Positions 995 through 49,132 of a DNA stretch of 64,000 bases are shown here, in pieces (within the stretch, counting starts at the first letter, position 1; each line of letters begins with the position of its first letter). Where the stretch lies: NCBI GenBank assembly GCA_020633895.1, contig JACKCT010000011.1:3607-67606 (forward strand), written 5' to 3'. The position numbers and the translations under genes are program-made. This stretch comes from Deltaproteobacteria bacterium. GTDB taxonomy: Bacteria; Lernaellota; Lernaellaia; JACKCT01. Under the pieces are notes generated by a model, which worked only from the letters and a program-made list of their open reading frames with translations, had not been told where the DNA came from and made no database searches.

Positions 995-3382
995 CTATGG
1001 AATCGGAGCTTGGGCTTCCAAGTGCACGGCTCCTGCTTGAAAGTTATAGGCGATATGATGATGTCCTTGGCTGTCGATCGCGGCACTGGGAGGAGTGATA
1101 CCGTCGGAAATTTCCACATCGGCGAATTTCCACGTATCATCCGCCTCAAGCCGGGCATATCTTAGTTTTCGAAGGCTCCAGTTGGGATTTTCCGCAAAGT
1201 AGATACAGGGGCGCTCTTGATCGTCCAGGAACATCGAAAGGGCGCCGGCGCGGCCCCCGTTTCCTGGAACGGCGTAATTTACCCATTCGCCGGAACGATT
1301 GGTCGCGAACCGAAGATCATTTAAATCTTTAACATAACCGATGTAAACGTTGCCCGAAGAATCGACGGCCAACGAAGCGTGGGTTGGAGAAAAATCATCA
1401 TCGATGACTTTAAAAACCCAGTCGCCCCCAGCAGTTCTTTCGGCGTAACTGAGATTAAAAGTCCCGTAGAGAATTCGGATCGTCGATTCTTCATCAATGT
1501 CGATATCGCGAATACTCGTCCAATTAGGACCGACTGTTTCGACGCTCCATAAGCCGTTTTCTTTGAAGGCCAGTTTTCCGTTTCCATCCACGACTAAGAG
1601 GAGATATGGATTGCCTTCTGGACTAAAATCAAAAAATCCGATTCGACCGACATATTCTTCAAATTCCAGAGGAACGGTCTCGAAGTTCCATTCCCCATTT
1701 TGGCGTGAGCCGAAGTGGATAACCGCGTCATCTCCATCCTCGATATATAAAAGGTGAGCGATACCGGTGGGGTCGTACCGGAGCGCGTTTTCCGACAAAA
1801 TTAAATTCGACCCAGCGGCGATTTGGATAATCGATGGGATCCCATTCTCCACCACCGCTTCGCGAATTCCTTCATAATAATGATGGTAGACGATATGGGC
1901 TCGATCCTCGGGGTCTAGGGCCAGTGAGACGTTCCCAACCCCCTGGGGCTCATCCCAAGCCTCGATGTCCCATCCCGACTCCGAGGATTCGACATGGATC
2001 GGCGGCCCGGATGTCACCGTCCCAATATGCACGTTATCGTTGCCATCGATAGCGACGTCATACGCCAAAGGGAAATAGTCTGAAAGAAGAAAGGCATCGT
2101 CCAAGCTCCAGCCACCCGAGGCGCCAGAGGCATAACGGAACGTCTTAGGTAATCCAAAGTTTTTTTCATAAATCAGATGAGGATATCCCTCGCTGTCCAA
2201 GTCCAGTGCGGGCCAGTTGGAACCGTCCTCATCGACGACGGTTCCCGTCCAATTTTCTTTAGGCTTCTTTGACCAATATTCGATGCCGCCGCCGCCGATG
2301 TCGCCCACATGGACTTGGCCGTCGGCATCGATCTTTATTTCCGCACAATAGGTGTTTGTCCGCTCCCACTCGGTTTCCCATGCCCCGGATTCATTGGTCA
2401 GCAGATAAGTTTTAAAGAAAAAGCCGTTCGAGAGAATGCTGCTGGTGGTGATCCAGACATCACCATCGGGGCTCAACGCGATATCGTCACAGACACCCGC
2501 GTCATATTCCCGGAATTCGTCGTATTCCATATCCCAGGCGACTTCCGTCTCCCAGGAGCCGGATCGATTTGTGGTATAGAGCAATTGAAGCGTCGATTCG
2601 TTGCGATAAACAATGTGAGCGAATCCATCGTCGTCCACCACCAAGCCGGGCATGGCCCCGCCGTTATCGCGATCGAAGACGTTCACTTTCGACAACGACG
2701 GGGGGCCGTCGGCGCCGTCGTCCACCACTTCAATGTTCCATGCGCCACCGCTGTCATCGGCGTACATCAGATCGTGCGTCCAAAGATTCTGCCACACGAC
2801 GTGACGCACATCGTTCTGATCGACGACCAGCTTGGGTTGGTCGCCCATATAGTCGATGACGTCCTCGACCCACCCGGTTTTGGTGTAACTTTTCGGATAT
2901 TCCAGCGGGGTTGGTTCGTCAGGCGGCGGGGTATACACGACGATCTCCCGGCCTTTCGCCCCCAGGATGTTCGGCATGTTCTGTGAATCGACGTCGATGG
3001 CTATGCCGTAAAGCCCCGCCGCGCCGCCGTCGATCTGCGTAACGCATCCACCCTTGGAGGCTCCGTCGGGAATGGTATAGCCGCGGGGACAGGGAGCGTA
3101 GTAGGTCGTATCGTCATCGTCCGCCGTGTCGTCGTCATCATCGTCGCCGGTGTCGTCGTCATTGGCAGAATCGTCGTCGTCGAGGGTATCGTCATCTCCC
3201 GCATCGTCGTCGGAAGTATCGTCGTCAACAGCGTCATCATCCGACGACGATACGTTCGACGAATCGTCGTCACCGCCGCCGCCGCCGCCGCCGCCGCCGC
3301 ACGCGATGAAGCTCAGCACTCCCGTTGAAAAAATCGAGAGCATCAACAAGACCAGAGCTGTTCGAAAAATTGCCGATTTCAT
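995..3382 (-). CDS. Lipoprotein with Gly9 + poly-Asp tether and repeated beta-propeller-like TNxSGxW units
   Basis: Start corrected to the internal ATG (MKSAIFRTALVLL...SFIAC), since the signal peptide begins there. Lipobox Cys, then GGGGGGGGG, then (DDDx)n over about 60 aa. Repeats of about 50 aa of the type HIVY..L.YTTNRSGSWETE. Confidence 0.6.
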   Translation of the reverse strand: MKSAIFRTALVLLMLSIFSTGVLSFIACGGGGGGGGGDDDSSNVSSSDDDAVDDDTSDDDAGDDDTLDDDDSANDDDTGDDDDDDTADDDDTTYYAPCPRGYTIPDGASKGGCVTQIDGGAAGLYGIAIDVDSQNMPNILGAKGREIVVYTPPPDEPTPLEYPKSYTKTGWVEDVIDYMGDQPKLVVDQNDVRHVVWQNLWTHDLMYADDSGGAWNIEVVDDGADGPPSLSKVNVFDRDNGGAMPGLVVDDDGFAHIVYRNESTLQLLYTTNRSGSWETEVAWDMEYDEFREYDAGVCDDIALSPDGDVWITTSSILSNGFFFKTYLLTNESGAWETEWERTNTYCAEIKIDADGQVHVGDIGGGGIEYWSKKPKENWTGTVVDEDGSNWPALDLDSEGYPHLIYEKNFGLPKTFRYASGASGGWSLDDAFLLSDYFPLAYDVAIDGNDNVHIGTVTSGPPIHVESSESGWDIEAWDEPQGVGNVSLALDPEDRAHIVYHHYYEGIREAVVENGIPSIIQIAAGSNLILSENALRYDPTGIAHLLYIEDGDDAVIHFGSRQNGEWNFETVPLEFEEYVGRIGFFDFSPEGNPYLLLVVDGNGKLAFKENGLWSVETVGPNWTSIRDIDIDEESTIRILYGTFNLSYAERTAGGDWVFKVIDDDFSPTHASLAVDSSGNVYIGYVKDLNDLRFATNRSGEWVNYAVPGNGGRAGALSMFLDDQERPCIYFAENPNWSLRKLRYARLEADDTWKFADVEISDGITPPSAAIDSQGHHHIAYNFQAGAVHLEAQAPIP

Positions 3383-3585
3383 TTTGGTGATCCAAAGATA
3401 GTATTCTTTCCGGTGACCGATTATCGCACAACGCCACTTGCCGTGGGAAAAGGAAATCGACGGGGCATCGCGAATTTTCCTTCCTCTTGCGCCCGCCGCG
3501 CCAATCGCCCAAACTGCTTGTGTCTTCACGATCTTCGCCGTGAACGATGATTCAATCTCCCGGAAAACACCGACAGGACGCGCGC

Positions 3586-4539
3586 ATGCCCCACAGCTCC
3601 CGCAAGCGGGTCATCCTCACCGGCGCCTCGGGCGTCGTGGGCCGCCATCTGGTCGACGCGGTTTTGCGTCGCGGGTGGGAGGTCTCGGTGCTGACCGTCA
3701 GCGGCGCGAACGTGCTGCCTTCCGGCGTGCGCAAAATCAAATGGGATCCCAAGGCGGCCGCCGGCGGCGACTCGAAGGCGCTGGACACCATCGCCCGGGC
3801 CCTGGACGGCACCGACTGGCTGGTGAACCTCGCCGGGGAAACCCTGGGCAGCGGGCGGCTGGACGGCAAGCACAAAAAGCGCGTGATGCAGTCGCGCCTC
3901 GACGCGGGCAACGCGCTGCATTCGGCGCGGCTGGCGTGCTCGAATCCGCCCATGGTCTGGACGCAGGCCTCGGCCACCGGCTTTTACGGCGACACGGGCG
4001 AGGCGGATGTCTATGAAACGGCCCCGGCGGGAAAGCACTTCTTCCTGGCCGATGTGTGCAAGGCGTGGGAAGGCGCCGCGACGCAGGCCCTGGACGCCCC
4101 CAAGGCGCCGCGCGTGATCATCGCCCGGCTGGGGTTGGTGCTCGCCAAGGACGCCCCGGCGTGGGAAAAGATGTTGCTGCCCATCAAGATCGGCGCGGGC
4201 GGTCCGTTGGGTTCGGGCAAGCAATGGTACGCGTGGATCGACGCCGACGAGGCGGCCGAGGCGATGATCTACCTGTTCGAGAAAAGCGACGCGAGCGGCG
4301 TGTATAACTTCACCACGCCCGAGCCGATCCGCCAGATTGACATGACCAAACAAACCGCCGACGCCATCGGTCGGCCGTCGTACTTCCCGGCCCCGGCCTT
4401 CGCGCTGCGCCTGGCGGTGGGAGGCGTCGCCGACGCGCTGCTGCTGCCGTCCTGCCGCGCCCTCCCCGACCGCCTCGCCAAGGCGGGCTATCCCTTCAAG
4501 ACGACGGACTTCGAGGACGAGCTGCCGAAGCTGGTTTAG
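3586..4539 (+). CDS. TIGR01777/YfcH-like NAD-dependent epimerase family protein
   Basis: ILTGASGVVGRHL Rossmann motif at the N-terminus. Overall YfcH-like layout with a C-terminal DUF1731-like region. Second Met chosen as the start. Confidence 0.65.
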   Translation: MPHSSRKRVILTGASGVVGRHLVDAVLRRGWEVSVLTVSGANVLPSGVRKIKWDPKAAAGGDSKALDTIARALDGTDWLVNLAGETLGSGRLDGKHKKRVMQSRLDAGNALHSARLACSNPPMVWTQASATGFYGDTGEADVYETAPAGKHFFLADVCKAWEGAATQALDAPKAPRVIIARLGLVLAKDAPAWEKMLLPIKIGAGGPLGSGKQWYAWIDADEAAEAMIYLFEKSDASGVYNFTTPEPIRQIDMTKQTADAIGRPSYFPAPAFALRLAVGGVADALLLPSCRALPDRLAKAGYPFKTTDFEDELPKLV

Positions 4540-4556
4540 GTGGGCGCCATGCCCGT

Positions 4557-4789: not shown

Positions 4790-4817
4790 ACATCACATGC
4801 CCGCCGTGGTGCGTTCC

Positions 4818-6233: not shown

Positions 6234-6337
6234 CAACTTTTCTCCCCGATTCAAAGATATCGCGATGAATTTGTTCCGCCAATGTAGCACAGGCGGGCGC
6301 ACGGGCAATGGGGGGCGAACCAATGGGGTCAAACGAA

Positions 6338-6625: not shown

Positions 6626-6744
6626 GATTCGACGCCACTCCTCGCGACGCATTATACGCAAAAACCGTCCATGAAGGGGCAACGGGATTTTCGTGGACGC
6701 TCGGCCCTCCCGGCGGCCGCCGCTTTGGGCTAAGCTGGCGCACT

Positions 6745-9746: not shown

Positions 9747-11396
9747 GTGATGATGTTTGGGTCCGAATTCTCCCGTTTTCGGGAAACGTTAAGTCTTTTT
9801 CTGGTTTTGCTTCTTTTTTCGTTCGTCTTGGGTTGCGGCGGAGAAGAGACGACCGAATCGGTCAGAACCGGCAACGACACGGGCGACACCTACCACGGTC
9901 AGGGAGACCCTGACGACTCCGAAACCGACGACGACGTCGCGGCGGATGACGATGTCGCCTCCGATGACGACGCGGCGGACGACGATGTCGCTCCCGAAGA
10001 CTTCCGGATCGAGGTGCTGCCCATCAGCGCCGGCAATCCCCTGAGCCGCTCGATCGTTGTCACCACGGCGGAGCCCATGTCCCTGTCCGCCCGGGCGACG
10101 ACCGCCGGAGAGCCGGGCTACGCGCCGTCGTTCCCCTCGGCGAGCGAATGGGGCACGCGCCACGAGTTCCTGCTGGCCGGGTTGATCGCCGAAAAAACCT
10201 TCGAGGTGGAGATCCTCGACGCCGACGACCCGTCGCGCGTCCTGGCCACCACCGAATTCGAAACGTCGGCCCTGCCCGAGCACGCCCCGATCATGACGGT
10301 CGAGACCTACGACAAAGGCGCCGCTCGCCCCGACCGTTGGGCGTTGCAGTCGCTGTTTGAATTGGGTGGTAAGCTGCCCGTGGGCGTGAACGGATTCATC
10401 ACCCTGTACGACCGCCTGGGCCGGCTGCGTTACTACCATGAGGTCAACGTCGACGACACGCAGCCCGGCATGGTCGTCTTCGGCGTCACGCCCATGAGCG
10501 ACGGCAGCTTCGTGTATTCCTGCGACAACAAGTTGTATCGGGTCGACCGCGCCGGCGGAAACAGCGTCTATATCGATCCCCAACTCGGCGACGAGATCCT
10601 CGAGGAAATCCACCACCAGTTCTACGTCGACGAGGCCTCCGGCCAAGCCGCGATCCTCTATAACGAACGCGGCCCCGCCTACGAATGCGACCAAACCACG
10701 CTGACGCAGGAAGCGGTCGGCGACGGCATCGCCCGTGTGAACATGAGCGGCGACGTGCTCTGGGATTGGAGCGCTTTTGACCACCAGGACGTGCTCTCTC
10801 CGGTCGTGCCCGACGTGGCGATGTGCGTTCTTCAGCGCAGCTCGTTCGGCGACGGCGTCGTGGACTGGACGCACGCCAACTCGGTCTACCCCACCGACGA
10901 CAACACGGCGCTGATCGTGTCCATCAAGAACCTCAGCGAGGTCGTGAAGATCAACGCCTTCACCGGCGAGATCATCTGGCAACTGGGCGCCGGCGGCGAC
11001 TTCACATGGCAGGGCAGCGAGCCGGTGCTGGAGCGCTGGTTCTGGCATCAGCACGACGCCAAAATCCTGCCCAACGGCAACGTGCTCCTGTTCGACAACG
11101 GTAACTGCCGCTCGGGCACATGCCCGTGGGGGCCGTGGTCGCGGGCGCTGGAACTGGCGATCGACGAAGAGAATATGACGGTGCGTGTCGTCTACGAGCA
11201 TCGGGTGAAGATGGCCCTGGCGATGGGCAACGCGGACCGGCTGGAGGACGGCAACACCTGGATCGGCTCGGGCGCGTCCAAGCTGTCGGTCGAAGCCACG
11301 CCCGCCGGTGACGAGGTCTGGTCCGCGGCGATCGACGCGGGTTATCAGTCCCGCTCGCTGGCCTACCCGGCGCTGTGGGTCTATCCCGAGGAATAA
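9747..11396 (+). CDS. Arylsulfotransferase (ASST)-like beta-propeller lipoprotein with N-terminal poly-Asp tether
   Basis: Signal peptide and lipobox FVLGCGG, then a D-rich tract (DDDVAADDDVASDDDAADDDVAPED). DWTHANSV and WHQHDAKILPNGNVLLFDNGN resemble ASST family signatures. Confidence 0.5.
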   Translation: MMMFGSEFSRFRETLSLFLVLLLFSFVLGCGGEETTESVRTGNDTGDTYHGQGDPDDSETDDDVAADDDVASDDDAADDDVAPEDFRIEVLPISAGNPLSRSIVVTTAEPMSLSARATTAGEPGYAPSFPSASEWGTRHEFLLAGLIAEKTFEVEILDADDPSRVLATTEFETSALPEHAPIMTVETYDKGAARPDRWALQSLFELGGKLPVGVNGFITLYDRLGRLRYYHEVNVDDTQPGMVVFGVTPMSDGSFVYSCDNKLYRVDRAGGNSVYIDPQLGDEILEEIHHQFYVDEASGQAAILYNERGPAYECDQTTLTQEAVGDGIARVNMSGDVLWDWSAFDHQDVLSPVVPDVAMCVLQRSSFGDGVVDWTHANSVYPTDDNTALIVSIKNLSEVVKINAFTGEIIWQLGAGGDFTWQGSEPVLERWFWHQHDAKILPNGNVLLFDNGNCRSGTCPWGPWSRALELAIDEENMTVRVVYEHRVKMALAMGNADRLEDGNTWIGSGASKLSVEATPAGDEVWSAAIDAGYQSRSLAYPALWVYPEE

Positions 11397-11525: not shown

Positions 11526-13022
11526 CTAACAGCCGCACCCCGCGTCGGTGTCATCGTCATTGAGGTCGGCATCGTTGTCGCTATCTGTGTCGTCGTCGTC
11601 ATCGTCCGGCACTTCGGGTAATTCACCGATGCGCCAGTTGACGAGGTATTGCTCGCCGCCGATCAACGCCGTTGCCAGCAGCGACGATTCGTTTTCAAAA
11701 ACGTAAGAGTCGATTCCCAGCTTTTTTATGCCGTCGGCGAGCGGTAGTTCTTCGCAACTCGCCGCGTCATGGTCGAAAATCGAATGGCAGAGACGAAGAA
11801 ATATTCTGGTTCCGACTCCGGAATATTCCCCCGAATAGAAGAACGACGTACCGGAAATGAACGGCGGGCCGACTCGATAGTATTCGTCAACGGCATCGGC
11901 TCGGAAGGCGTCGCTCCATATCGAATCGTCGTCGATTCCCGCTGCACCCGCGCCGGCGACCCGCGTCAGCGCTTTATCATTGGTGGCGATATTCGTTGAC
12001 GTCCACGCCAGCATCTCTTTGCGCTCGCCATCCAGCTCTTGAAAAGTCGCGGTGACGTAACGCGTATTGTAATGGACCGGCGAATCGCGGATTTCACCGT
12101 CGGGCGTGACGATGACATCGTTCAATCGTCCCTCCCATCCCGTGCTCGACATGTCGACGGTGTAGCCGACGTAAATTTCTTGTCGAGAGTTGTGCGTCAG
12201 ATATCGCGGAACAACAAAGTTGATGTCTTCCGCTTCGCCGATCTCCAACGGGACTTCGATGGTCTTCAAGACTTCGCCGCTGAAGCTCATTTGAACGACT
12301 CGGCCGTCCGAATATTCCGGCAGGCCATTCTGGCTATACGCGATGAGCAACGACGGCTCACCGCCGTCCATTCCGCTGAGGATGTCATAAGCGGCGCCGC
12401 GAATATCCTCCCCGAATTCGATCGTCGATTCATCGAGCAACGATCCGTAAAAGTCGAAGGTCGCCAGACGCAGGGACTCGTCGGACGGCCGGTCCACCAA
12501 GACGAGAAGGTCGCTGTCGATTCCGCCGCGCACGGCGAAGGCCACGGGATCGTCGAACTCCAAATCGTAGCGTTCGGCGGCGACCTCATTACCGCCCAGA
12601 TCGTAGCGGATCATGACGAAGCGCCACTTGTCGTCGTCGCTCCACGAGCGGCCCCAGACGAACAGCGCCGGGTCGGAAGGATGCGTCGCGTAGCCGCCGA
12701 GGGAGCCTTGGAGCACGCCGATCTGTTCGTCTTCGTCGAGGCCGGGGGCTTGGTAGAGGTTCAGCTTTTCACGCTCGCCGGTGAGGGTGTCGAAAACGGC
12801 CAAACCAATCTTCGGCGGACGATCGCCGCCCGCCCGTGGCGTGATCCCCGCGTACAATCGCGGCTCGTCGGGATGGACCGCGAAGGGGACATAAGCGATG
12901 TTCGGTGCGTCGTCGCTCGTGATCTGCCGGCTATAGAATAGGGTGACGTCATCGTCCGCTTCCGCGACGCCGAGCCGTCCAAGGCCCAACACCAAAACCA
13001 ACGCGAATTTTCGCGTCCACAT
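11526..13022 (-). CDS. SPI-secreted hypothetical protein with C-terminal poly-Asp tail ending AGCGC
   Basis: N-terminal signal MWTRKFALVLVLGLGRLGVAEA. C-terminus VPDDDDDDTDSDNDADLNDDDTDAGCGC-stop. No recognisable catalytic motif. Confidence 0.55.
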   Translation of the reverse strand: MWTRKFALVLVLGLGRLGVAEADDDVTLFYSRQITSDDAPNIAYVPFAVHPDEPRLYAGITPRAGGDRPPKIGLAVFDTLTGEREKLNLYQAPGLDEDEQIGVLQGSLGGYATHPSDPALFVWGRSWSDDDKWRFVMIRYDLGGNEVAAERYDLEFDDPVAFAVRGGIDSDLLVLVDRPSDESLRLATFDFYGSLLDESTIEFGEDIRGAAYDILSGMDGGEPSLLIAYSQNGLPEYSDGRVVQMSFSGEVLKTIEVPLEIGEAEDINFVVPRYLTHNSRQEIYVGYTVDMSSTGWEGRLNDVIVTPDGEIRDSPVHYNTRYVTATFQELDGERKEMLAWTSTNIATNDKALTRVAGAGAAGIDDDSIWSDAFRADAVDEYYRVGPPFISGTSFFYSGEYSGVGTRIFLRLCHSIFDHDAASCEELPLADGIKKLGIDSYVFENESSLLATALIGGEQYLVNWRIGELPEVPDDDDDDTDSDNDADLNDDDTDAGCGC

Positions 13023-13162: not shown

Positions 13163-15322
13163 TTAGGAGCCGCAACCCGAGTTGTCGTCGTCGTCATCGT
13201 CGCCCGTATCGTCGTCGGCCGAATCGTCGTCGCCGAAGTCGTCATCCGAATCATCGTCCCCGGTGTCATCGTCCCCGGTATCGTCGTCGCCCGTGTCATC
13301 GTCGTCGTCATCGCCGACGGGGCCGTCCGTCAATCCGGTCAACACCAGCGAAAACGCCTGGGGGCCGTCGGGCACGTCCGAGCCGGTCACGACCACCGTC
13401 ACCGTCTCGCCGATGCGGGGTTCGCCGTCGAACTGCACCTGCTCCACCGGATCCCGATGGTTCTCGCCCTTGGTCGCGTCGTCCGCGGGGTGGGCCGGAT
13501 CCAGAATCCAAGGCAACTCGTCGCCGTCTTTCGTGACGATCTTCAAATCCAGGTCATTAACCAACGATTTACTGGTCAGTACCGGGCCGGGCTTGTCCGT
13601 CCAGACCAACGTCGCCTTCACTTCACCGCCGTCGACCGTGAATTCCTGTTCCCAGACGTCGCCCTGGTCCAACGCCTCGTCCAGAACCAGAATTCCGTCG
13701 TCCATCGCCAGCACGGACCCGGGAATGTTGAGCACGCCGTAGCCCATGCGATAGCTCGGCCCGTCCTGCTCTTCCACCTTCTTCGCGCCGTGCACCACCA
13801 ACGCCTTGAACGTCGAGTGGGCCGCCAACGGCTCGCCTTTCGTGTCCTTCCAGCGCTGCATCAGCAGGGAAACGCCGCCGGTGACGACCGGTCCGGCCAT
13901 GCTCGTGCCGCAAAAGGAGATGTATTCGTTCTTGCGACCCGTGGCGACAATGCCCGGCGGGCAGGCCTCGTCGTGATTTTCGCCGCAGACCGCCGGCGTC
14001 GCGCGCCCGGTCGAGCACCCCGGCGCCGACACATCCGGACGCAGTCGCCCGTCGTCGGTGGGCCCCCAACTGGAGAAGAACGAGACCGAGTCGTCCTCCT
14101 TGTTCGACGAGCCCACGCCGATGGAGTTCTTCGCCGTGGCCGGCGGCGCGATGGTCTCGTAGGTGCCGCATCCGGGGGAATAGCCCCGTTCGTTGCCGAT
14201 GGACCACACGATGGAGATCGGGCCGTAGGCGCCGCCGACGATGGTGTCGATTTGCTGGGCGGTCAGATTGTAGTCGCCCTCAAACTCGCAGTAGCCGTTC
14301 TGGTCGTTGGCCAATTCGGCCAGGTTGGATCCGATGGAATTGTTGGCCACGTTCGCGCCGTACTCGTTGATGGCCGTGTCGTAGGCGGTGTCCATGTTGC
14401 CGTAGTTGTAATACATGGGCGGCAGCAAGCCGTCGAAGCCGGGAATGAAGCTGGCGGAGATGACGCCCACTTCCGGCGCCATGCCTTCGATGAACCCGTC
14501 CGAATTGGTCCCGTCACCGGCGATGATGCCGACCACGTGGTGGGGGTGGCCGACCACGTCGGGAACCGGCAATCCGAAGCGCTCGACGCGCCCGGCCCAG
14601 TCGTCGTTGCCGTCGAGCTTGACGACGCCGCCGTCCAGCACAAACGCCTTGACGCCCTTGCCGGTCAGGCCCCAGGTCTCCTTGGCCACGTCCGCGCCGG
14701 TGGCGGGCTTGGCCTGATACATATTCTCTTCGAGCTGCATCGACGTCTCGTCGACCCACATCACCGCGTCGTTCGCCGCGATGGCTCCGAAGTCCCGCTC
14801 CCCGGCGGCAACCTGGAACAGGCGGATCGACGGGGCCTCGTCCAGAATCGCAAGGCCCATCCCCTCGAGCATCGCCCGACCCTGGGCCATGGTCACGTCG
14901 GGATGCATCTGAACGTCGAGGACGCGGCGGCCGTCGGCCAACTTGCTATGGGCATGCAGCATGCCGTCGCGCAGGCCGCGCGAGATCTTGTCTTCGGCCG
15001 GCAGTTCGCCCGCCCAACGCACCCGCCGCGCGGCGGCGTCGGTCACATGGTCCAGGCGAGCGACCCAGGCCCCGTTGCCCAGCGGCGTCAGCAAATGCAA
15101 TCCCTCACGCGCCAGTTCGCGACGCTCGGCGGCCGTCGGTTTATGGTCCATCCGGACCAGGGCGTGCGTGCCGTCCATGGACGCCGGACTCGACCCGACC
15201 GATTTTTCCAAGGTCGGATCGATGGTTCGGTTTTTCAAATGAATGGCATCGTCGGCCAGGCCCGGACGGGCGGTCCAACTCAAGGCAACGGCCGCCATCG
15301 CGACCAGCGACAAAAAACGCAT
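13163..15322 (-). CDS. Subtilisin-like serine peptidase (S8) with C-terminal poly-Asp tail ending GCGS
   Basis: Signal peptide MRFLSLVAMAAVALSWTARPGLA. Catalytic Ser motif GTSMAGPVVTGG, His region HPHHVVGIIAG, Asp region FVLDGG. C-terminus GDDDDDDTGDDDTGDDDTGDDDSDDDFGDDDSADDDTGDDDDDDNSGCGS-stop. Confidence 0.8.
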   Translation of the reverse strand: MRFLSLVAMAAVALSWTARPGLADDAIHLKNRTIDPTLEKSVGSSPASMDGTHALVRMDHKPTAAERRELAREGLHLLTPLGNGAWVARLDHVTDAAARRVRWAGELPAEDKISRGLRDGMLHAHSKLADGRRVLDVQMHPDVTMAQGRAMLEGMGLAILDEAPSIRLFQVAAGERDFGAIAANDAVMWVDETSMQLEENMYQAKPATGADVAKETWGLTGKGVKAFVLDGGVVKLDGNDDWAGRVERFGLPVPDVVGHPHHVVGIIAGDGTNSDGFIEGMAPEVGVISASFIPGFDGLLPPMYYNYGNMDTAYDTAINEYGANVANNSIGSNLAELANDQNGYCEFEGDYNLTAQQIDTIVGGAYGPISIVWSIGNERGYSPGCGTYETIAPPATAKNSIGVGSSNKEDDSVSFFSSWGPTDDGRLRPDVSAPGCSTGRATPAVCGENHDEACPPGIVATGRKNEYISFCGTSMAGPVVTGGVSLLMQRWKDTKGEPLAAHSTFKALVVHGAKKVEEQDGPSYRMGYGVLNIPGSVLAMDDGILVLDEALDQGDVWEQEFTVDGGEVKATLVWTDKPGPVLTSKSLVNDLDLKIVTKDGDELPWILDPAHPADDATKGENHRDPVEQVQFDGEPRIGETVTVVVTGSDVPDGPQAFSLVLTGLTDGPVGDDDDDDTGDDDTGDDDTGDDDSDDDFGDDDSADDDTGDDDDDDNSGCGS

Positions 15323-39007: not shown

Positions 39008-41113
39008 ATGCGTCGTGATGCGGTGCGTTGGTGGTGGGTGTTGGTGTTGGTCGTGGTGTTGGGCGCTCTGTTTGCGGCGTCGACGGCTTGCGGCGGCGAT
39101 GATGACGACGACGACACGGCTTCGGACACGGACGACGACGACGTCAGCGCCGATGACGACGATGATGATGATGACGACCTGGACGGCGACGACGACTGCA
39201 AGGCCCCGTTCGATTGCGGCGCCGACGATGACGACAACGCCATCACCCTCGATCTGGTCGACGGATGCAATATGTTCGCGACAAGCTCCGAGTGCGTCTT
39301 TCCGTTCCCGTCGTCGAATTTCGAAATCCCTGCCGACACGCCCACCGGTGTGAAACTCGACTACCCGGATGACTCGGTCCAAGTCGCCGAAGGCACCCCG
39401 CCCATCGACATGGAGCGCATCAACGCCGGTGACGGCCACTCCCCGGTCACGCCCATCCTGGTGCATTTCGGGCGGGACGTGCATCCCGACTTTTTGTTCA
39501 CCGAAGACTTCGTCGAGCGCTCCCTGGCCGACAACGCTCCCATCGCCCTGGTCAACGCCGACACCGGCGAGCGCGTGCGCGTCATGGCCGAGATGGACGC
39601 CAACCGGGTCGAGGACCTGGAAGGCCGCTACGCGCTCATCATCCGCCCGATGCAGCCCCTGGAATTCGGCGGGCGATACATTGTGGTCCTGACCAACGCG
39701 CTGACCGACAGCGAGGGCGCGTCCTTCGATTCGCCCCCGGCCTTCGCGGCGCTGAGGGATGACGTCCCGACCACCAACACCCCCGTCGAGGCGATTCGCG
39801 ATCGCTACGAAGACAACTTCGACGTTCTGGCCTTGACGGGCTACAACCGGGACGACCTCCTCCTGGCGTGGGATTTCACCGTGGCGAGCAAGGATTTCGT
39901 CTTCGGCCCGGTGCTGTCCATGCGTGAAGAGGCGATCGACGAATACGAAAAGGCGCCCATCGCCTACAAAATCGACAAGGTCTTCGACAACCCGGAACCC
40001 AATCTGGCCCGGCGCGTGGAGGGTGTGTTCACCGTCCCGAATTACCTCAACAAAGACGAGCAGTTCGAGCTGGACGCCGACGGCCTGCCCACGCTTCTGG
40101 GCGAGGACAAGAAGGTGCCCTTCACCATGATCATCCCCAAGCGGGCGCTCACCGAAGGCAAGCCGCTGCCGCTGATGATCTTCGGCCACCCGCTCTATTC
40201 CACCGGGCGCCTGTTCCTGCGCAGCTTCACGTACCTGCATGACATCGCCGAGAAGCAAGGCTTCATCGTGGTCGCCACCGACTGGCGCGGCCTGGGCACC
40301 GCCGACTTTTTGCCTCTGTTCACCAAGGTGCTCTCCGACCTCAACCAGATCGGCCGTGTCACCGAGCAGATGCAGCAGTCGATGATCAACACCATGGTCC
40401 TCACCGAACTGGCGCGCACGCGCTTCGGCTCCGACCCGGACATGAAAGTCGCCGCCAACGACCTGATCGACGACGGCCCGATCTATTATTACGGCGTCAG
40501 CTTCGGCGCCATCATGGGATCGGCGTTCATGGGCATGTCGCCCCATGTGCAGCGCGCGGCCCTCTCCCTGCCCGGCGGCGGGTGGGCCCACATCATCCCC
40601 CGGTCCATCCTCTGGGCGCCCCTGCGGTCCGTGATGCAGAAGAACTACCCCGATCCGTTGGCCCAACAACTCGGCTTCGGGTTCATCCAGCAGCGCTTCG
40701 ACCCCGCGGACTCGGCCAACTGGGCTACGCGCATCTACAACGACCCCCTGCCCGACGCGCCCAAGAACGTCGAGGTGCTCATGCAGGAGGCGATCGGCGA
40801 TTGCTATGTGCCGAATATGGGCACGGAGATCCTGGTGCGAGGCGCGGGGATGAACCAGCTCACCCCGGCGGTGGAGGTCATCGACGGTTTGACGCCGGTC
40901 ACGGCCCCGGTTTCCAAACCGGCCGTGACGCAGTTCTACATCGTCGACGAGGTCGAGGCGAATCCGCCGCCGGAAAACAACGCCGCCAAGCTCTCGTGCA
41001 ACGCGGTGCATGTCACGTCGCTGGGCCTGCCCAATCTGCAGGAACAGATCGAGCACTTCCTGGCCGACGGCGAGGTCATCCACCCCTGCGACGGTATTTG
41101 CGACCCGGATTAA
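39008..41113 (+). CDS. Secreted alpha/beta-hydrolase-fold lipoprotein with poly-Asp tether (paralog of 23938-26112)
   Basis: ACGGAGGG, 7 nt, then ATG. LGALFAASTACGG, then about 60 aa D-rich. GxSxG as YYYGVSFGAIMG. C-terminal CDGICDPD. Confidence 0.6.
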   Translation: MRRDAVRWWWVLVLVVVLGALFAASTACGGDDDDDDTASDTDDDDVSADDDDDDDDDLDGDDDCKAPFDCGADDDDNAITLDLVDGCNMFATSSECVFPFPSSNFEIPADTPTGVKLDYPDDSVQVAEGTPPIDMERINAGDGHSPVTPILVHFGRDVHPDFLFTEDFVERSLADNAPIALVNADTGERVRVMAEMDANRVEDLEGRYALIIRPMQPLEFGGRYIVVLTNALTDSEGASFDSPPAFAALRDDVPTTNTPVEAIRDRYEDNFDVLALTGYNRDDLLLAWDFTVASKDFVFGPVLSMREEAIDEYEKAPIAYKIDKVFDNPEPNLARRVEGVFTVPNYLNKDEQFELDADGLPTLLGEDKKVPFTMIIPKRALTEGKPLPLMIFGHPLYSTGRLFLRSFTYLHDIAEKQGFIVVATDWRGLGTADFLPLFTKVLSDLNQIGRVTEQMQQSMINTMVLTELARTRFGSDPDMKVAANDLIDDGPIYYYGVSFGAIMGSAFMGMSPHVQRAALSLPGGGWAHIIPRSILWAPLRSVMQKNYPDPLAQQLGFGFIQQRFDPADSANWATRIYNDPLPDAPKNVEVLMQEAIGDCYVPNMGTEILVRGAGMNQLTPAVEVIDGLTPVTAPVSKPAVTQFYIVDEVEANPPPENNAAKLSCNAVHVTSLGLPNLQEQIEHFLADGEVIHPCDGICDPD

Positions 41114-43292: not shown

Positions 43293-43922
43293 ATGGCTTG
43301 GACGACGAAAACCTGGATCTTGACCTTGGCCCTGTTGCTGGCCCTTGGCGCCCTGAGCCTGGGATGCAAAAGCGGCGACGACGATGACGACGATTCGGTG
43401 GCCGATGACGACACCGCCGATGACGACACGACCGACGATGACACCGCGGACGACGACACATCCGATGACGACACTTCCGACGATGACACGACGGACGACG
43501 ACACCGGTGACGACGACACGGTAGAAACGGTGACGTACGACTTCCCGCTCATCCTCGAGTTTCGCAACACGGCCCAGCTTCATCTGGAAGTCACCGGCGA
43601 CGCCATCGAGGGCTCCTTCACCGCCGCCGAGGGCTACGGAAACGAGTTCATCCCCGCGAACACCGAACTTTCCGGCGAAGGCAAGCTCATGACCTTCGAA
43701 GAGGCCAAATACGAGATGTTCACGTTGGAGTTTTCCGGCGGACCGGTGACGGACGGGCCGTGCGGCGCCGAGACGGTGAACTACGCGCTGACGCTCAACC
43801 ACCAGATCGGTCAGACCGAACTGAACGGCGGCATCACCTGCCGATGCGGCGACGACCTGCGTTACAAGGGAATGCTGCGCATCCAGACCGGTGTGTATGA
43901 AGGCGGCGACGACGACGAATAG
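43293..43922 (+). CDS. Small lipoprotein with poly-Asp tether
   Basis: AAGGGA RBS then ATG. MAWTTKTWILTLALLLALGALSLGCKSG, then DDDDDDSVADDDTADDDTTDDDTADDDTSDDDTSDDDTTDDDTGDDDT. About 130-aa C-terminal domain. Confidence 0.55.
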   Translation: MAWTTKTWILTLALLLALGALSLGCKSGDDDDDDSVADDDTADDDTTDDDTADDDTSDDDTSDDDTTDDDTGDDDTVETVTYDFPLILEFRNTAQLHLEVTGDAIEGSFTAAEGYGNEFIPANTELSGEGKLMTFEEAKYEMFTLEFSGGPVTDGPCGAETVNYALTLNHQIGQTELNGGITCRCGDDLRYKGMLRIQTGVYEGGDDDE

Positions 43923-47097: not shown

Positions 47098-47257
47098 CCC
47101 TCATCTTTTTTTCAGATTTTTTGAATTTTTGCCGAAAAAGTGACAGATTAGTTTTCGTTAGAATCAATACGTGTCCACCGGTCAGCGTTGCCCTTCAGGC
47201 TGTACTGAAATACCAAAACGGTCAGTTGGGAGACCGGGGGACAATCGAGGTTAGGAG

Positions 47258-49132
47258 ATGCGTCAACACCGCTTGCGTCAGCGGGTCTGTCTGGTCTGGT
47301 GCCTGTTTCTAATATTTGGATTTGTCGGATGCGGAGGCAGCGACGACGGCGACGATGTCAGCCGTTCGGGCGCCGACGCCAACGACGGCCTGGCATGCGT
47401 TGATTGCTCGGGAACGCCGGGCGACGACGATGACGGCCCGATCATCGACGATGACGATGACGACGTGATCGACGACGACGTTTCGGACGACGATTTGTCC
47501 GATGACGATACGGTCGCCGATGACGACGACACCGACGACGACGATGACGATGACGATGACCTCCCGTCGACGACCACCACGACCATCCCCGCCGGAACCA
47601 CCACCACGGTGCCGGCCACCACGACCACCACAACCAAAAAGCCGACGACGACCACGACGGTTAAGCCCACAACCACGTCCACGACCACCACGACGCTCCC
47701 GCCGGGGCAGGACGCCACGCCGTCCATGAAATTCGGGACGGTGCATTTCAACTACTATTACGGCTTCCCCGGTCAGTATAAGGGCAACACCTTCTACAAG
47801 GACCACGACTGGATGGCCGACACCATCGAGCTGGCGATCATCGGCTACGGTGATCCTGGCATGGATATGTCCTGGGACTACCTGCGTCAGCAGGATAAGG
47901 TGGGCAACTGGCTGCCCTGGCGTCTGGCTCAGATTTTCCCGACCAACGATACGGCCGGATCCTGCGGCAGTCCGTCCGTCGGCAACGAAGATCCGCGCTT
48001 CGATGACTGGATCGACGAGTTCGACGACTTCCTGTCCGACTATCCCGAGTACGGCGACGGCGAAACCTGCTTCCTGCACGCTAAATACGACGGCGACATC
48101 ACCGCCCTGTGGCACGTGCGCGGCTGCGAGGTGGACGTGCCGCAGAAGGGCTACCTGGACTCGGCCCGCAATATGTACCAGGCCCGCATCAAGACACTCG
48201 TGTGGGACGAGTACGGCTGGCTGATCGACCTGCAGTCCGACTGCGGCAAGGACTACACCGCCTGGGTGGGCGAACAGTCGATCCTCGACGGCTACGGCGG
48301 TATCGGCTTCGACAACATCGGCGGCCCGGCCGAAGGCGGCTATTACCTGCCCGAGGACACCAGCGAAGTGGATATCGCCGAGATCGCCAACTCCGTCGAA
48401 TTCAACGCCTCCAAGCTCGACGACTGGTGGATCGAGACCCGCGACGAGGTCCTCAAATACACGCAGAACCACATGCGCACCATCGACTCCAACGCCAAGA
48501 TGGTGGTCAATGCGGGATCGTACTGTTCCTGGGAGCCCGGGTTCTACTCGATCCTGGGCAGCGATGCGCCGGGTCTGGGCATCTGGTGCGAATTCGCGCT
48601 GCATCACCCCTCGTGGGGCACGCTGACGACCGAGGACCGCCTCGAGGCGCTGATCAAAATCTCCGACGAACTGGCTGACCAGGACCGCTTCCAGGCGGTG
48701 GAGTATTACTACGACCGGGCCGGCGCCGCGGTGGGCACCGAAGAGGTGCTTTATTACCTGGCCGCCTATTACGTCTACAAGCAAAAAGACGACGTGTTCA
48801 TCCTGCGCCCCTATAGCTGGGAGCCCTACAAGGCCTTCAAGGACACGATCTGGTTCGACGTCCTGGGCCGGGATCTGGGCGAGCCCGACGGTCTGGGCAA
48901 GAAGCTCAACAACGGCATCTTCGAACGCACTTTCGAGAACGACCAGGGCGTCAAGGCGCGGGTGCTGGTGCGTGTCGACGGCAATGCATCGTCCAAGAGC
49001 TTCAACCTGGGCGGCGACTACTGCCGGGTGGAGATCGACAACTCGCTCACGCCCGTAAGCGGCTGGATCACCTTCAACAGCGGCGACGGCCACATCCTCC
49101 TGGAAAAAGGCCCCGGCGGCATCGACTGCTAG
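47258..49132 (+). CDS. Lipoprotein with poly-Asp and poly-Thr mucin-like linkers plus a C-terminal domain of unknown function
   Basis: LIFGFVGCGG. D-rich tract DDDDDVIDDDVSDDDLSDDDTVADDDDTDDDDDDDDD. TTTTTIPAGTTTTVPATTTTTTKKPTTTTTVKPTTTSTTTTTLPP. About 450-aa globular domain. Confidence 0.6.
   Translation: MRQHRLRQRVCLVWCLFLIFGFVGCGGSDDGDDVSRSGADANDGLACVDCSGTPGDDDDGPIIDDDDDDVIDDDVSDDDLSDDDTVADDDDTDDDDDDDDDLPSTTTTTIPAGTTTTVPATTTTTTKKPTTTTTVKPTTTSTTTTTLPPGQDATPSMKFGTVHFNYYYGFPGQYKGNTFYKDHDWMADTIELAIIGYGDPGMDMSWDYLRQQDKVGNWLPWRLAQIFPTNDTAGSCGSPSVGNEDPRFDDWIDEFDDFLSDYPEYGDGETCFLHAKYDGDITALWHVRGCEVDVPQKGYLDSARNMYQARIKTLVWDEYGWLIDLQSDCGKDYTAWVGEQSILDGYGGIGFDNIGGPAEGGYYLPEDTSEVDIAEIANSVEFNASKLDDWWIETRDEVLKYTQNHMRTIDSNAKMVVNAGSYCSWEPGFYSILGSDAPGLGIWCEFALHHPSWGTLTTEDRLEALIKISDELADQDRFQAVEYYYDRAGAAVGTEEVLYYLAAYYVYKQKDDVFILRPYSWEPYKAFKDTIWFDVLGRDLGEPDGLGKKLNNGIFERTFENDQGVKARVLVRVDGNASSKSFNLGGDYCRVEIDNSLTPVSGWITFNSGDGHILLEKGPGGIDC

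What the first reader, a model, noticed from the sequence alone, without database searches (positions are those of the whole stretch)
995..49132. Recurrent exported-protein module: lipobox Cys-Gly-Gly followed by a long (DDDx)n poly-aspartate tether on seven unrelated proteins
Seven CDS in one 64-kb window begin with the same module: a signal peptide ending in a lipobox Cys, then GG, then 30-70 residues of near-pure Asp in DDDx periodicity. The seven are 995-3382 (where Gly9 replaces GG), 9747-11396, 21535-23862, 23938-26112, 39008-41113, 43293-43922 and 47258-49132. After the module come unrelated globular domains: beta-propeller repeats, an ASST-like propeller, alpha/beta hydrolases and unknown domains. 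The module therefore behaves like a portable targeting or tether cassette, not a family trait. I know of no described sorting signal of this form. It recalls the Bacteroidota lipoprotein export signal (acidic residues right after the lipidated Cys), but it is far longer and sits in a high-GC, proteobacteria-like genome. It could act as a surface-exposure signal, a Ca2+ or mineral-binding tether, or a disordered spacer that holds hydrolases away from the membrane.
Basis: seen in the sequence. Interest (0 to 1): 0.85.

Follow-up and report, generated by a model that had tools for sequence, protein, structure and literature searches.

The report
Poly-aspartate tethers beside lipoprotein anchor cysteines
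In this uncultured bacterium, secreted enzymes are joined to their predicted membrane-anchoring cysteine, at either end of the protein, by a long floppy stretch made almost only of aspartate; this is an unusual lineage-specific version of the known lipoprotein tether, not a new kind of targeting cassette.

Summary
Seven exported proteins carry a signal peptide, a Cys, and then a (DDDxx)n Asp tract. The details need correcting. The repeat is a pentapeptide. Two tracts start about 30 residues after the Cys. One lipobox is non-canonical. The seven passengers fall into five families.

The tract is a fast-evolving, Asp-only linker (D:E = 935:4) that is predicted to be disordered. Orthologues carry tracts of 12-134 residues, other kinds of linker, or almost none. 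A short lipobox-CGG-D5-8 start is common in several phyla and resembles the Bacteroides LES (C-SDDDD). Long tracts appeared in only 4 of 115 sampled loci, all from "bacterium" or FEN-1099-labelled MAGs, so the lineage is probably Lernaellota-like.

I also found the same tract at C-termini, where it is followed by a conserved G-C-G-C or C-C-G stop. That is the MYXO-CTERM signature without its transmembrane helix. Two genes in the window have it, about 20 subtilase homologues have it, and so do several unrelated proteins in relatives.

Best reading: a polyanionic spacer next to a Cys that is known or presumed to be lipidated, holding hydrolases off the membrane. A role in surface sorting is possible. 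I rate it a new variant of a known kind, of moderate interest.

The parts
995..3382 (-). p1: 795-aa lipoprotein. Signal peptide 3302-3382, lipobox Cys28 3299-3301, Gly9 3272-3298, D-tract aa 38-91 = 3110-3271 (54 aa, 32 Asp). Passenger is repeat-rich and possibly a beta-propeller.
   Evidence: Pfam BNR_4 and NCBIfam PDIAV_lipo hits are below threshold. Distantly related to p3. GC3 is only 0.61.
9747..11396 (+). p2: 549-aa lipoprotein, arylsulfotransferase (ASST) family. Cys30 9834-9836. A mixed acidic linker is followed by a short D-tract, aa 61-80 = 9927-9986 (20 aa, 12 Asp).
   Evidence: (PF05935, E = 1.5e-40).
21535..23862 (+). p3: 775-aa exported protein. Cys26 21610-21612 sits in a non-canonical lipobox, A-A-D-G-C. 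D-tract aa 29-73 = 21619-21753 (45 aa, 29 Asp).
   Evidence: (fails the PS51257-like pattern). Shares a 26-nt word with the p4 module.
23938..26112 (-). p4: 724-aa lipoprotein esterase with an alpha/beta-hydrolase fold. Signal peptide 26023-26112, Cys31 26020-26022, D-tract aa 34-74 = 25891-26013 (41 aa, 28 Asp), poly-Thr aa 75-96 = 25825-25890.
   Evidence: AlphaFold: residues 31-90 have pLDDT of about 45 and no secondary structure, and residues 100-724 exceed 90. Foldseek top hits are CE7 acetyl xylan esterases. Invariant GxS522xG, D622 and H691.
39008..41113 (+). p5: 701-aa lipoprotein, paralogue of p4. Cys28 39089-39091. D-tract aa 31-76 = 39098-39235 (46 aa, 29 Asp), containing a small C-K-A-P-F-D-C loop.
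   Evidence: (41% identity to p4). Matches P0060.
43293..43922 (+). p6: 209-aa lipoprotein with an unknown small domain. Cys25 43365-43367 followed by K-S-G. D-tract aa 29-75 = 43377-43517 (47 aa, 30 Asp). This is the most regular 15-nt repeat.
   Evidence: (period 15/30/45, score up to 165).
47258..49132 (+). p7: 624-aa lipoprotein with an unknown domain. Cys25 47330-47332. A 30-aa Cys-containing linker is followed by the D-tract, aa 56-101 = 47423-47560 (46 aa, 32 Asp), and then a poly-Thr/Pro region, aa 114-149 = 47597-47704.
11526..13022 (-). c1 (not in the finding): 498-aa protein with an ordinary Sec signal peptide. C-terminal acidic tract aa 473-494 = 11541-11606, then G-C-G-C (11529-11540) and a TAG stop.
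   Evidence: terminator-like hairpin after the stop; no TM helix downstream in any frame; orphan protein.
13163..15322 (-). c2 (not in the finding): 719-aa S8 subtilase with a Sec signal peptide. C-terminal D-tract aa 671-713 = 13184-13312 (43 aa, 30 Asp), then N-S-G-C-G-S (13166-13183) and a TAA stop.
   Evidence: PF00082, E = 1.3e-34; about 20 homologues end in an acidic tract plus GCGC or CCG.

Best explanation
The (DDDxx)n tract is an intrinsically disordered, strongly polyanionic tether. An uncultured lineage, probably FEN-1099 / Ca. Lernaellota-like, places it between a terminal membrane-anchor cysteine and the folded domain of exported enzymes.

N-terminal form. Sec export comes first, then Lgt/LspA processing at the lipobox. 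That step is inferred from a canonical lipobox in six of the seven. The result is a lipidated Cys followed by Gly-Gly and 20-54 residues (up to about 130 in relatives) of Asp-only repeat carrying a net charge of -12 to -32.

C-terminal form. Proteins with an ordinary signal peptide end in the same tract followed by G-C-G-C or C-C-G. This is the signature motif of MYXO-CTERM, whose Cys is proposed in the literature to be lipidated. Here the transmembrane helix is missing.

Function (inferred, not shown). The tract acts as an extended, membrane-repelled, soluble spacer that holds esterases, proteases, sulfotransferases and similar enzymes away from the membrane surface. The acidic residues directly after the Cys may also bias sorting toward the outer membrane or cell surface, as acidic LES motifs do in Bacteroidota.
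For: Position. All 9 tracts in the window abut a terminal Cys motif. In relatives' loci, excluding the genes used as queries, 8 tracts follow a lipobox Cys, 4 precede a C-terminal Cys tag, 1 is C-terminal without a Cys and a few are internal. All 10 real ORFs ending in C-x-C-type tails across 294 kb have at least 15 acidic residues in the preceding 35.

Linker behaviour. Within the p4 orthologue family the globular part is 25-51% identical, while the segment from the Cys to the first conserved motif varies from 12 to 134 aa with an Asp fraction of 0 to 0.57. Some orthologues carry G/A/T/P-type linkers instead.

Disorder. In the p4 AlphaFold model, residues 31-90 have pLDDT of about 45 and no secondary structure, beside a domain with pLDDT above 90.

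Selection, not slippage alone. D:E is 935:4 and K+R is 1 in 34 tracts, compared with roughly 1:1 for unforced D:E in other phyla's linkers. Asp codons are a GAC/GAT mix at about the genome ratio.

Subset specificity. Four other lipobox proteins in the window lack the tract: two SurA/PrsA-like PPIases, an ankyrin protein and a small protein. The tract-bearing passengers are hydrolase-type enzymes and are themselves acidic.

Precedent. Half of E. coli outer-membrane lipoproteins have disordered linkers longer than 22 aa, and it is length and disorder, not sequence, that matter for Lol trafficking. The GCGC motif and the proposed Cys lipidation of MYXO-CTERM are described in the literature.
Against: There is no experimental evidence for lipidation, localisation or spacer function. 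Disorder was modelled for p4 only. The strict use of Asp rather than Glu, and the DDDxx periodicity, go beyond what a generic spacer needs and hint at an extra function such as cation binding, protease resistance or recognition. p3 lacks a canonical lipobox. One C-terminal tract in a relative has no Cys (L239 6315-6482), and some tracts are internal (L118). How a C-terminal GCGC without a TM helix could be anchored is unknown, so treating both ends as the same thing is an inference. The census of relatives is small, and some of those loci were chosen through D-tract proteins.
Confidence: 0.6

Rival explanations
1. The acidic stretch right after the lipidated Cys is a sorting signal, like the Bacteroidota lipoprotein export signal (LES). 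It directs the lipoprotein across the outer membrane to the cell surface or into vesicles, and the remainder of the tract is an extension of that signal.
For: The B. fragilis LES consensus is C-S-D-D-D-D. Negative charge is required, and Asp works better than Glu. p3, p4 and p5 start C-G-G-D-D-D-D. The tract marks hydrolase-type lipoproteins and is absent from periplasmic PPIase lipoproteins in the same window. The strict preference for Asp over Glu parallels the LES.
Against: In Bacteroidota the LES position is critical, at +3 to +5. Here the first Asp is at +4 in three proteins, +5 in two, +11 in p1 and about +31 for the p2 and p7 tracts. A signal needs only 3-5 residues, not 20-130. Orthologues lack it. 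The same tract occurs at C-termini, where an N-terminal LES cannot operate. The lineage is not Bacteroidota, and no export machinery was identified.
Confidence: 0.3
2. The tract is a divalent-cation or mineral-binding module (Ca2+, Mg2+, Fe or a mineral surface). It would dock the enzymes to cation-bridged LPS, exopolymer or particles, or buffer cations at the envelope.
For: The composition is Asp-only, with small residues in between and no Glu, Lys or Arg. This resembles the poly-Asp Ca-binding and biomineralisation proteins reviewed in the literature retrieved (my own knowledge: Asprich, aspein, calsequestrin). Relatives carry Cys/Asp-rich MopE-like metal-binding motifs (PF11617) next to the tract.
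Against: There is no direct evidence. The tract shows no fixed length or register conservation, as a defined binding site would. Its position is tied to anchor cysteines and not to any particular passenger.
Confidence: 0.2
3. The tracts are selectively neutral low-complexity expansions. Replication slippage of a GAC-rich 15-nt repeat is tolerated in linkers that are already disordered, and the tract has no function of its own.
For: TRF detects 15/30/45-nt tandem repeats in the tracts. Length differs greatly between orthologues. A short D5-8 seed after CGG is widespread and could be the substrate for expansion.
Against: Repeat copies match only 62-92%, and synonymous GAC/GAT usage is mixed, so the tracts are old. 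Glu, one third-position change away, is almost absent (4 versus 935), which indicates purifying selection for Asp. The tracts are confined to anchor-adjacent positions in exported proteins.
Confidence: 0.1
4. Gene-calling artefact: the start sites are wrong, so the Cys is not at a signal-peptidase II site and the tracts are internal or non-coding.
For: p3 has a non-canonical lipobox. NCBI calls a shorter start for p4: P0001 is 710 aa against 724 aa.
Against: Both p4 starts retain the h-region and lipobox. Six of the seven pass a PS51257-like pattern with a basic n-region and a hydrophobic h-region. GC3 supports these frames. Dozens of homologues have the same layout.
Confidence: 0.02

Closest known systems
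Intrinsically disordered N-terminal linkers of Gram-negative outer-membrane lipoproteins (El Rayes et al., bioRxiv 10.1101/2021.01.05.425367)
   Same: The linker lies directly after the lipidated Cys and its sorting residues, is longer than 22 residues, is predicted to be disordered, and varies in length and sequence between orthologues. It occurs on functionally unrelated lipoproteins.
   Different: The composition here is extreme and constrained: about 65% Asp, almost no Glu, Lys or Arg, and a DDDxx period. Lengths reach about 130 aa. It is restricted to one uncultured lineage, and it also occurs at C-termini. A role in Lol trafficking was not tested here.
Bacteroidota lipoprotein export signal (LES), e.g. 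B. fragilis C-S-D-D-D-D and C. canimorsus C-x-K-(D/E)2 (PMC5080379; also PMC6222051, PMC10319031)
   Same: A small or polar residue and then several Asp right after the +1 Cys. It is found on surface hydrolases but not on periplasmic lipoproteins, and Asp is preferred over Glu.
   Different: The LES is 4-5 residues at a fixed position. Here the tract is 20-130 residues with a variable offset. The phylum is different, the export machinery is unknown, and surface exposure was not tested.
MYXO-CTERM sorting signal (TIGR03901) processed by myxosortase MrtX (PMC11980579; bioRxiv 10.1101/2023.06.07.544157)
   Same: A C-terminal signature with an invariant Cys, often G-C-G-C, on Sec-exported proteins, including proteases with Cys-rich MopE-like repeats. 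One subtilase homologue (P0100) has the full layout of Cys motif, TM helix and basic tail.
   Different: The window proteins and about 20 homologues stop right after the Cys motif, with no TM helix and no Arg cluster. There is no HMM match. An Asp tract precedes the motif. The lineage lies outside Myxococcota and Bradymonadales, to which MYXO-CTERM is reported to be restricted.
Short 'lipobox-CGG-D5-8' starts of mature lipoproteins in Chloroflexota, Actinomycetota, Myxococcota and Achromobacter (found here)
   Same: The same first 8-11 residues of the mature protein, on many unrelated substrate-binding proteins and enzymes.
   Different: In those phyla the Asp run is short and is followed by T/A/P/E/Q/G-rich linkers, with D:E near 1:1 outside the forced run. 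Only 4 of 115 loci have long DDDxx tracts.
Acidic linkers before archaeal PGF-CTERM anchors (locus L182, seen here) and spirochaete lipoprotein tethers (my own knowledge: Zueckert laboratory work on Borrelia)
   Same: A low-complexity, disordered segment placed next to a lipid-anchoring terminal signal.
   Different: Different domains of life or phyla, and different anchor chemistry. This is only a compositional and positional analogy.

Membership tests
Bacterial lipoprotein signal peptide (SPase II type; PROSITE PS51257) | A basic n-region and an uncharged hydrophobic h-region in the first 15-40 residues or so | tested here: met
   All seven have K or R in the n-region, and the maximum 12-residue hydropathy is 2.3-3.4.
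Bacterial lipoprotein signal peptide (SPase II type; PROSITE PS51257) | Lipobox [LIVMFWSTAG]2-[LIVMFYSTAGCQ]-[AGS]-C with no charged residue in the preceding six positions | tested here: met
   Met by p1, p2, p4, p5, p6 and p7. Not met by p3 (A-A-D-G-C, Asp at -2).
Bacterial lipoprotein signal peptide (SPase II type; PROSITE PS51257) | Diacylglyceryl modification of the Cys by Lgt and cleavage by LspA | not testable with these tools
   This needs biochemistry. The lgt and lspA genes are not in the window, and the whole genome could not be scanned.
Disordered lipoprotein N-terminal linker (El Rayes et al. 2021) | An unstructured segment from the +1 Cys to the first secondary-structure element of the globular domain, longer than 22 residues | tested here: met
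   p4: residues 31-90 have pLDDT of about 45 and no DSSP elements. Cys-to-domain distances of roughly 50-130 aa in all seven are judged from sequence. Only p4 was modelled.
Disordered lipoprotein N-terminal linker (El Rayes et al. 2021) | Length and disorder, not sequence, are required for efficient Lol-dependent outer-membrane targeting | not testable with these tools
   This requires membrane fractionation of linker mutants.
Bacteroidota lipoprotein export signal (LES) | Two or more acidic residues at about +3 to +6 after the Cys, preceded by a polar or basic residue | tested here: inconclusive
   p3, p4 and p5 have Asp from +4, after G-G. p2 has E-E at +4 and +5. p6 is K-S-G-D from +2. p7 has Asp at +5 and +6. 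p1 has its first Asp at +11.
Bacteroidota lipoprotein export signal (LES) | Occurs in Bacteroidota and confers surface exposure | tested here: not met
   The lineage is labelled Deltaproteobacteria or bacterium, with FEN-1099 / Lernaellota relatives. Surface exposure itself cannot be tested here.
MYXO-CTERM (TIGR03901) | C-terminal signature motif with an invariant Cys, frequently G-C-G-C | tested here: met
   c1 ends GCGC and c2 ends GCGS. About 20 c2 homologues end GCGC, CCG or GCGCxx. More examples occur on other proteins in L176 and L240.
MYXO-CTERM (TIGR03901) | A transmembrane helix immediately after the signature motif | tested here: not met
   The stop codon follows the motif directly. 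No hydrophobic segment belonging to the gene lies downstream in any frame, for any of the 10 examples. Only P0100 has a TM tail.
MYXO-CTERM (TIGR03901) | An Arg-rich cytoplasmic cluster at the extreme C-terminus, and a match to the curated HMM | tested here: not met
   There is no Arg cluster. NCBIfam hmmscan at E up to 1 gives no sorting-signal hit for c1, c2, P0100 or P0101. Short models may be lost to HMMER's filters.
MYXO-CTERM (TIGR03901) | A cognate CPBP-family myxosortase (MrtX, NF040914) encoded in the genome | not testable with these tools
   The window encodes none. The rest of the genome could not be searched.
Any curated protein domain covering the D-tract | A significant Pfam or NCBIfam match over the tract | tested here: not met
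   Only sub-threshold, compositionally driven hits were found, such as Mucin and EbpS.

The most novel reading that the evidence does not exclude
The Asp tract plus a terminal Cys motif forms a two-ended anchoring and sorting system specific to this lineage. Under this reading, a free C-terminal G-C-G-C or C-C-G tail with no transmembrane helix is modified directly, by lipidation or cross-linking. It would act as a 'pre-cleaved' MYXO-CTERM, formally similar to eukaryotic CXC/CC prenylation tails. The poly-Asp tract would be the element recognised for outer-membrane or surface display at both the N- and C-terminal anchors. That would be a C-terminal anchoring mechanism not yet described in bacteria, and it would bear directly on the open question of how the MYXO-CTERM cysteine is modified.
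Probability: 0.2. Interest if true: 0.85.

Novelty: new variant of a known kind. Interest (0 to 1): 0.55.

Why it matters
Lipoprotein tethers and acidic export signals are known to influence where envelope proteins end up. The known rules come from a few cultured phyla. This finding shows an uncultured lineage that has pushed the tether to an extreme: Asp only, up to about 130 residues, applied selectively to degradative enzymes.

The same tether also sits before a conserved C-terminal GCGC or CCG tail that lacks the transmembrane helix every described Cys-type C-terminal sorting signal has. If that tail is an anchor, it gives a natural test of whether Cys modification in MYXO-CTERM-like systems needs membrane insertion.

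In practical terms, the motif pair (lipobox-Cys-GG-(DDDxx)n, and (DDDxx)n-GCGC-stop) is a simple marker for predicting the exposed 'exo-proteome' of these organisms from metagenomes. Poly-Asp tethers could also be useful as soluble, non-sticky display linkers.

Tried and rejected
(1) The metagenome scan for (DDDxx)3DDD used a badly chosen pattern. Its N positions also match GAY, so most of the 120 loci were pure poly-Asp microsatellites from low-GC, largely eukaryote-like contigs. It could not serve as an unbiased context census.

(2) The exact-sequence lookup of p4 failed because NCBI uses a different start.

(3) tblastn of the window's proteins against the four long-tract genome loci found no shared genes, so that test could not link their lineage to the window.

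(4) The UvrA search gave only unnamed close relatives at 75-76% identity, then many phyla at 65-69%. It could not name the phylum. The lineage assignment rests on the FEN-1099-labelled assembly and the Ca. Alcyoniella homologue.

(5) The exhaustive HMMER search with c1 found no family, because c1 is an orphan. Conservation of the C-terminal tag is therefore shown at family level only for the subtilase.

(6) I rejected the idea of a globally acidic, halophile-like proteome. The other window proteins have (D+E)/(K+R) = 1.13.

(7) I rejected hidden TM tails reached by read-through or frameshift.

(8) I rejected a single DNA cassette spreading by recombination.

(9) The paper describing Lernaellota (PMC9324843) does not mention lipoproteins or Asp-rich linkers. 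Literature searches found no description of poly-Asp lipoprotein tethers and none of a TM-less GCGC tag. The searchable library is incomplete, so this is not proof that no such description exists.

Full report
**1. What is in the sequence**

The window is 56-66% GC and holds ordinary chromosomal genes: ETF, an OTCase-like enzyme, an M19 dipeptidase, cardiolipin synthase, UvrA, PdxA, three SurA-like chaperones and a porin-like protein. The organism is therefore a diderm.

Translating the seven claimed CDS confirms the core observation. Each begins with a basic n-region, a hydrophobic h-region, a Cys, small residues and an Asp-rich tract. An unbiased six-frame scan for windows of 20 residues with at least 9 Asp finds exactly nine tracts in 64 kb. 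The other two sit at the C-terminal ends of the adjacent genes 11526-13022(-) (c1) and 13163-15322(-) (c2, an S8 subtilase). Both have ordinary Sec signal peptides and end '...DDDTDAGCGC*' and '...DDDDDDNSGCGS*'. All nine tract starts lie in anchor-adjacent zones that make up 4.1% of the window's coding residues. A crude uniform-placement null gives p of about 3e-13.

**2. Corrections to the description**

- The repeat is a pentapeptide, D-D-D-[T/V/A/S]-[G/S/A/T/V], and TRF reports 15/30/45-nt periods.
- Tracts are 20-54 residues and 60-70% Asp, with no Glu and essentially no Lys or Arg.
- In p2 and p7 the tract begins 30 residues after the Cys.
- Six of the seven pass a PROSITE-PS51257-like lipobox pattern. 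p3 (A-A-D-G-C) does not.
- The passengers form five families, not seven. p4 and p5 are paralogues (41% identity) and p1 and p3 are distant relatives.
- p2 is an ASST-family protein.
- p4 is modelled with confidence (mean pLDDT 89.8) as an alpha/beta hydrolase. Its best structural matches are CE7 acetyl xylan esterases, and it has an invariant GxSxG Ser, Asp and His.

**3. The tract behaves as a linker, not as a conserved signal or a DNA cassette**

The p4 family has 79 homologues. Their globular parts are 25-51% identical and nearly all have a lipobox Cys. The segment between that Cys and the first conserved motif (C-N-P) ranges from 12 to 134 residues, with an Asp fraction from 0 to 0.57. About 21 members have DDDxx tracts. 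Equally close members have G/A/T/P/D-mixed, D-G-D or G-G-D linkers, or almost none.

In the p4 model, residues 31-90 (the Cys, the D-tract and a poly-Thr run) have pLDDT of about 45 and no secondary structure. They sit next to a domain with pLDDT above 90.

At the DNA level the modules are not copies of one another. Only the convergent neighbours p3 and p4 share a 26-nt identical word. That occurs in 0.5% of synonymous re-draws, which is weak evidence across 28 pairs. All other pairs are at chance.

The tract is also not a neutral microsatellite. Asp codons are a GAC/GAT mix at about the genome-wide ratio. In 34 tracts from lineage homologues, D:E is 935:4 with one Lys and no Arg. Glu is a single third-position change away from Asp, so this implies selection for Asp specifically. 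The proteome as a whole is not acidic: other window proteins have (D+E)/(K+R) = 1.13, although the passenger domains are acidic at 2.15.

**4. Distribution**

I scanned species-representative genomes for the DNA encoding C-G-G-D5. About 100 of them sit right behind a hydrophobic, lipobox-terminated signal peptide. They come from Chloroflexota (many Dehalococcoidia), Actinomycetota, Myxococcota, Achromobacter, Massilia, Sphingomonas and even Prevotella. A short acidic start to the mature lipoprotein is therefore common across unrelated phyla. In those phyla the Asp run is 5-12 residues long and is followed by other low-complexity linkers.

Long DDDxx tracts of 45 aa or more occurred in only four loci. 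All four are labelled 'bacterium' or 'Deltaproteobacteria bacterium', and one carries the isolate name FR-FEN-1099-1.

The window's own proteins are annotated in NCBI as 'MAG: Deltaproteobacteria bacterium' (H6684_ tags). A close homologue of c2 lies on the same FEN-1099-labelled assembly. A more distant homologue belongs to Ca. Alcyoniella australis, phylum Ca. Lernaellota. UvrA shows only four close relatives at 75-76% identity. One lies on the contig that carries a D-tract orthologue of p4, and another lies in a locus syntenic with the window. The lineage is therefore sparsely sampled. It is probably Lernaellota-like, but I could not prove that.

**5. The C-terminal counterpart**

Among subtilase homologues only 36-47% identical to c2, about 20 end in an acidic tract followed by G-C-G-C, C-C-G or G-C-G-C-x-x and then stop. 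The tract itself varies freely.

In relatives' loci, unrelated proteins end '...GGCCGC*', '...GGCCSC*', '...EEGCCG*' and '...NDNGCGC*' after acidic tracts. Across 294 kb of lineage DNA, all ten real ORFs with C-x-C-type tails have at least 15 acidic residues in the preceding 35. Four shadow-frame ORFs with similar tails have 2 or fewer. No TM helix or Arg cluster follows in any frame, all three stop codons are used, and terminator-like hairpins follow several of them.

The literature describes G-C-G-C as the generic signature of MYXO-CTERM. That signal is tripartite: signature, TM helix and Arg cluster. Its Cys is proposed to be lipidated, possibly by Lgt, before the CPBP protease myxosortase removes the helix and the T2SS delivers the protein to the surface. 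It is reported only from Myxococcota and Bradymonadales. One homologue here, P0100, has such a full tail after its Asp run. The rest have only the signature. NCBIfam recognises none of them. I found no description of a TM-less version.

Some N-terminal modules in relatives also carry double Cys: L-S-C-G-C-G-G-D, T-A-C-G-G-C-G-G-D and A-G-C-S-C-G-D. These mirror the C-terminal G-C-G-C.

**6. Census in relatives**

Leaving out the genes used as queries, D-tracts in relatives' loci follow a lipobox Cys eight times and precede a C-terminal Cys tail four times. One is C-terminal without a Cys, and a few are internal in Cys/Asp-rich regions. Two loci fetched through UvrA, which makes them unbiased with respect to D-tracts, contain no tract and one tract. 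The one is a GH31 lipoprotein.

In the window, four other lipobox proteins lack the tract: two SurA/PrsA-like PPIases, an ankyrin-repeat protein and a small protein. The tract therefore marks a subset of lipoproteins, and those are enzymes likely to act on external polymers.

**7. Mechanism**

Shown: the position next to terminal Cys motifs, predicted disorder, hypervariable length, Asp-specific composition and restriction to a subset of exported proteins.

Inferred from established knowledge: Lgt/LspA lipidation at the lipobox. In E. coli, disordered linkers longer than 22 residues promote Lol-dependent outer-membrane targeting regardless of their sequence. Acidic residues right after the Cys drive surface export in Bacteroidota, where the B. 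fragilis consensus is C-S-D-D-D-D and Asp works better than Glu.

My best reading, at about 0.6, is a polyanionic entropic spacer next to a lipid-anchoring Cys at either terminus. It keeps hydrolases soluble, extended and away from the anionic membrane surface. An LES-like sorting role (about 0.3) and cation or mineral binding (about 0.2) are compatible add-ons and could explain the strict use of Asp. Neutral slippage (about 0.1) and a gene-calling artefact (about 0.02) are unlikely.

**8. Novelty and verdict**

The N-terminal module is an extreme, lineage-specific variant of two known things: the disordered lipoprotein tether and the acidic post-Cys motif. It is not a new class of signal and not a mobile cassette.

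It is the conserved C-terminal tail of Asp tract plus GCGC or CCG, without a TM helix. It does not meet the definition of MYXO-CTERM, and its anchoring chemistry, if any, is unknown.

Overall I rate this a new variant of a known kind, with interest about 0.55.

Noticed in passing
window 11526-13022(-) and 13163-15322(-); L176 1234-5323(+); L240 (three ORFs ending near 14082, 16309 and 20953); P0081-P0101, P0136: A conserved C-terminal tail: an acidic tract followed by G-C-G-C, C-C-G or C-C-x-C and then a stop, on Sec-exported proteins. This is the MYXO-CTERM signature motif without the TM helix or Arg cluster. One homologue, P0100, has the full TM-containing tail.
   Followed up: yes
window 25825-25890 (p4) and 47597-47704 (p7); neighbouring genes 49385-50623(-) GT87 and 50657-52426(+) PMT_2: Poly-Thr and Thr/Pro runs directly follow the Asp tracts in p4 and p7. 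Two membrane glycosyltransferase genes (GT87 and PMT_2-type) lie just downstream of p7. This suggests possible O-glycosylation of the tethers.
   Followed up: no
L239 18429-18647, L012 2671-2991, L244 21767-21958; P0028, P0045: Some N-terminal modules carry a second Cys right after the lipobox Cys (C-G-C-G-G-D, C-G-G-C-G-G-D, C-S-C-G-D). These mirror the C-terminal G-C-G-C tag.
   Followed up: partly
window 39170-39235 (p5 tract); P0003, P0011 (L118 10103-10330): Small Cys-x5-7-Cys loops are embedded in the Asp tracts of p4-family members: D-D-D-C-K-A-P-F-D-C-G-A-D-D-D-D in p5 and D-S-C-D-A-P-A-D-C-D in relatives. This may be a mini disulfide knot within the tether.
   Followed up: no
window 995-3382(-) and 21535-23862(+): The genes for p1 and p3, the two related repeat proteins, have clearly lower GC3 (0.61 and 0.66) than their neighbours (about 0.85), and local GC falls to about 0.56. 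The cause could be horizontal acquisition or different constraints.
   Followed up: partly
window 44713-47097(+): A 794-aa predicted lipoprotein (lipobox Cys37, no Asp tract) made of about 13 ankyrin repeats. This is an unusual architecture for a bacterial envelope protein.
   Followed up: no
window 54990-55502(-), tandem repeats 55024-55310; tRNA-Leu 54817-54901(-): A small ORF encodes an Ala/Glu/Lys-rich repeat protein (A-K-A-A-E-E-type units from 18/33/72-nt tandem repeats). It lies next to the only tRNA gene in the window.
   Followed up: no
window 59961-63175(-): Three consecutive SurA/PrsA-like PPIase genes. Two of them are predicted lipoproteins with Gly/Ser/Lys-rich linkers and not Asp-rich ones. 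The arrangement is syntenic in relative L243.
   Followed up: partly
L182 8883-8936 (metagenome contig LFFM01000546.1, GC 0.69): A D-D-D-A-I-D-D-D-A-A-D-D-D-A-I-D-D-D tract lies immediately before a tail that looks like PGF-CTERM (P-G-F-G-V-V-P-A-L-V-A-A-L-A-A-A-L-L-A-T-R-R-R-D). It appears to be an independent archaeal-type case of an Asp-rich linker next to a lipid-anchoring sorting signal.
   Followed up: no
P0095, P0100, P0101, P0136; L240 15590-15676: Cys/Asp-rich MopE-like putative metal-binding repeats (PF11617) are inserted between the protease domain and the Asp tract in more distant subtilase homologues. This recalls the Cys-rich repeats found upstream of MYXO-CTERM in myxobacterial surface proteins.
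   Followed up: no
window 23938-26112(-) and 39008-41113(+): The p4/p5 esterase family ends in a conserved C-D-G-x-C-D-P-D motif and has a weak NCBIfam match to VolA/Pla-1 phospholipases (E = 8e-6, below threshold). VolA is a surface lipoprotein lipase in Vibrio.
   Followed up: partly
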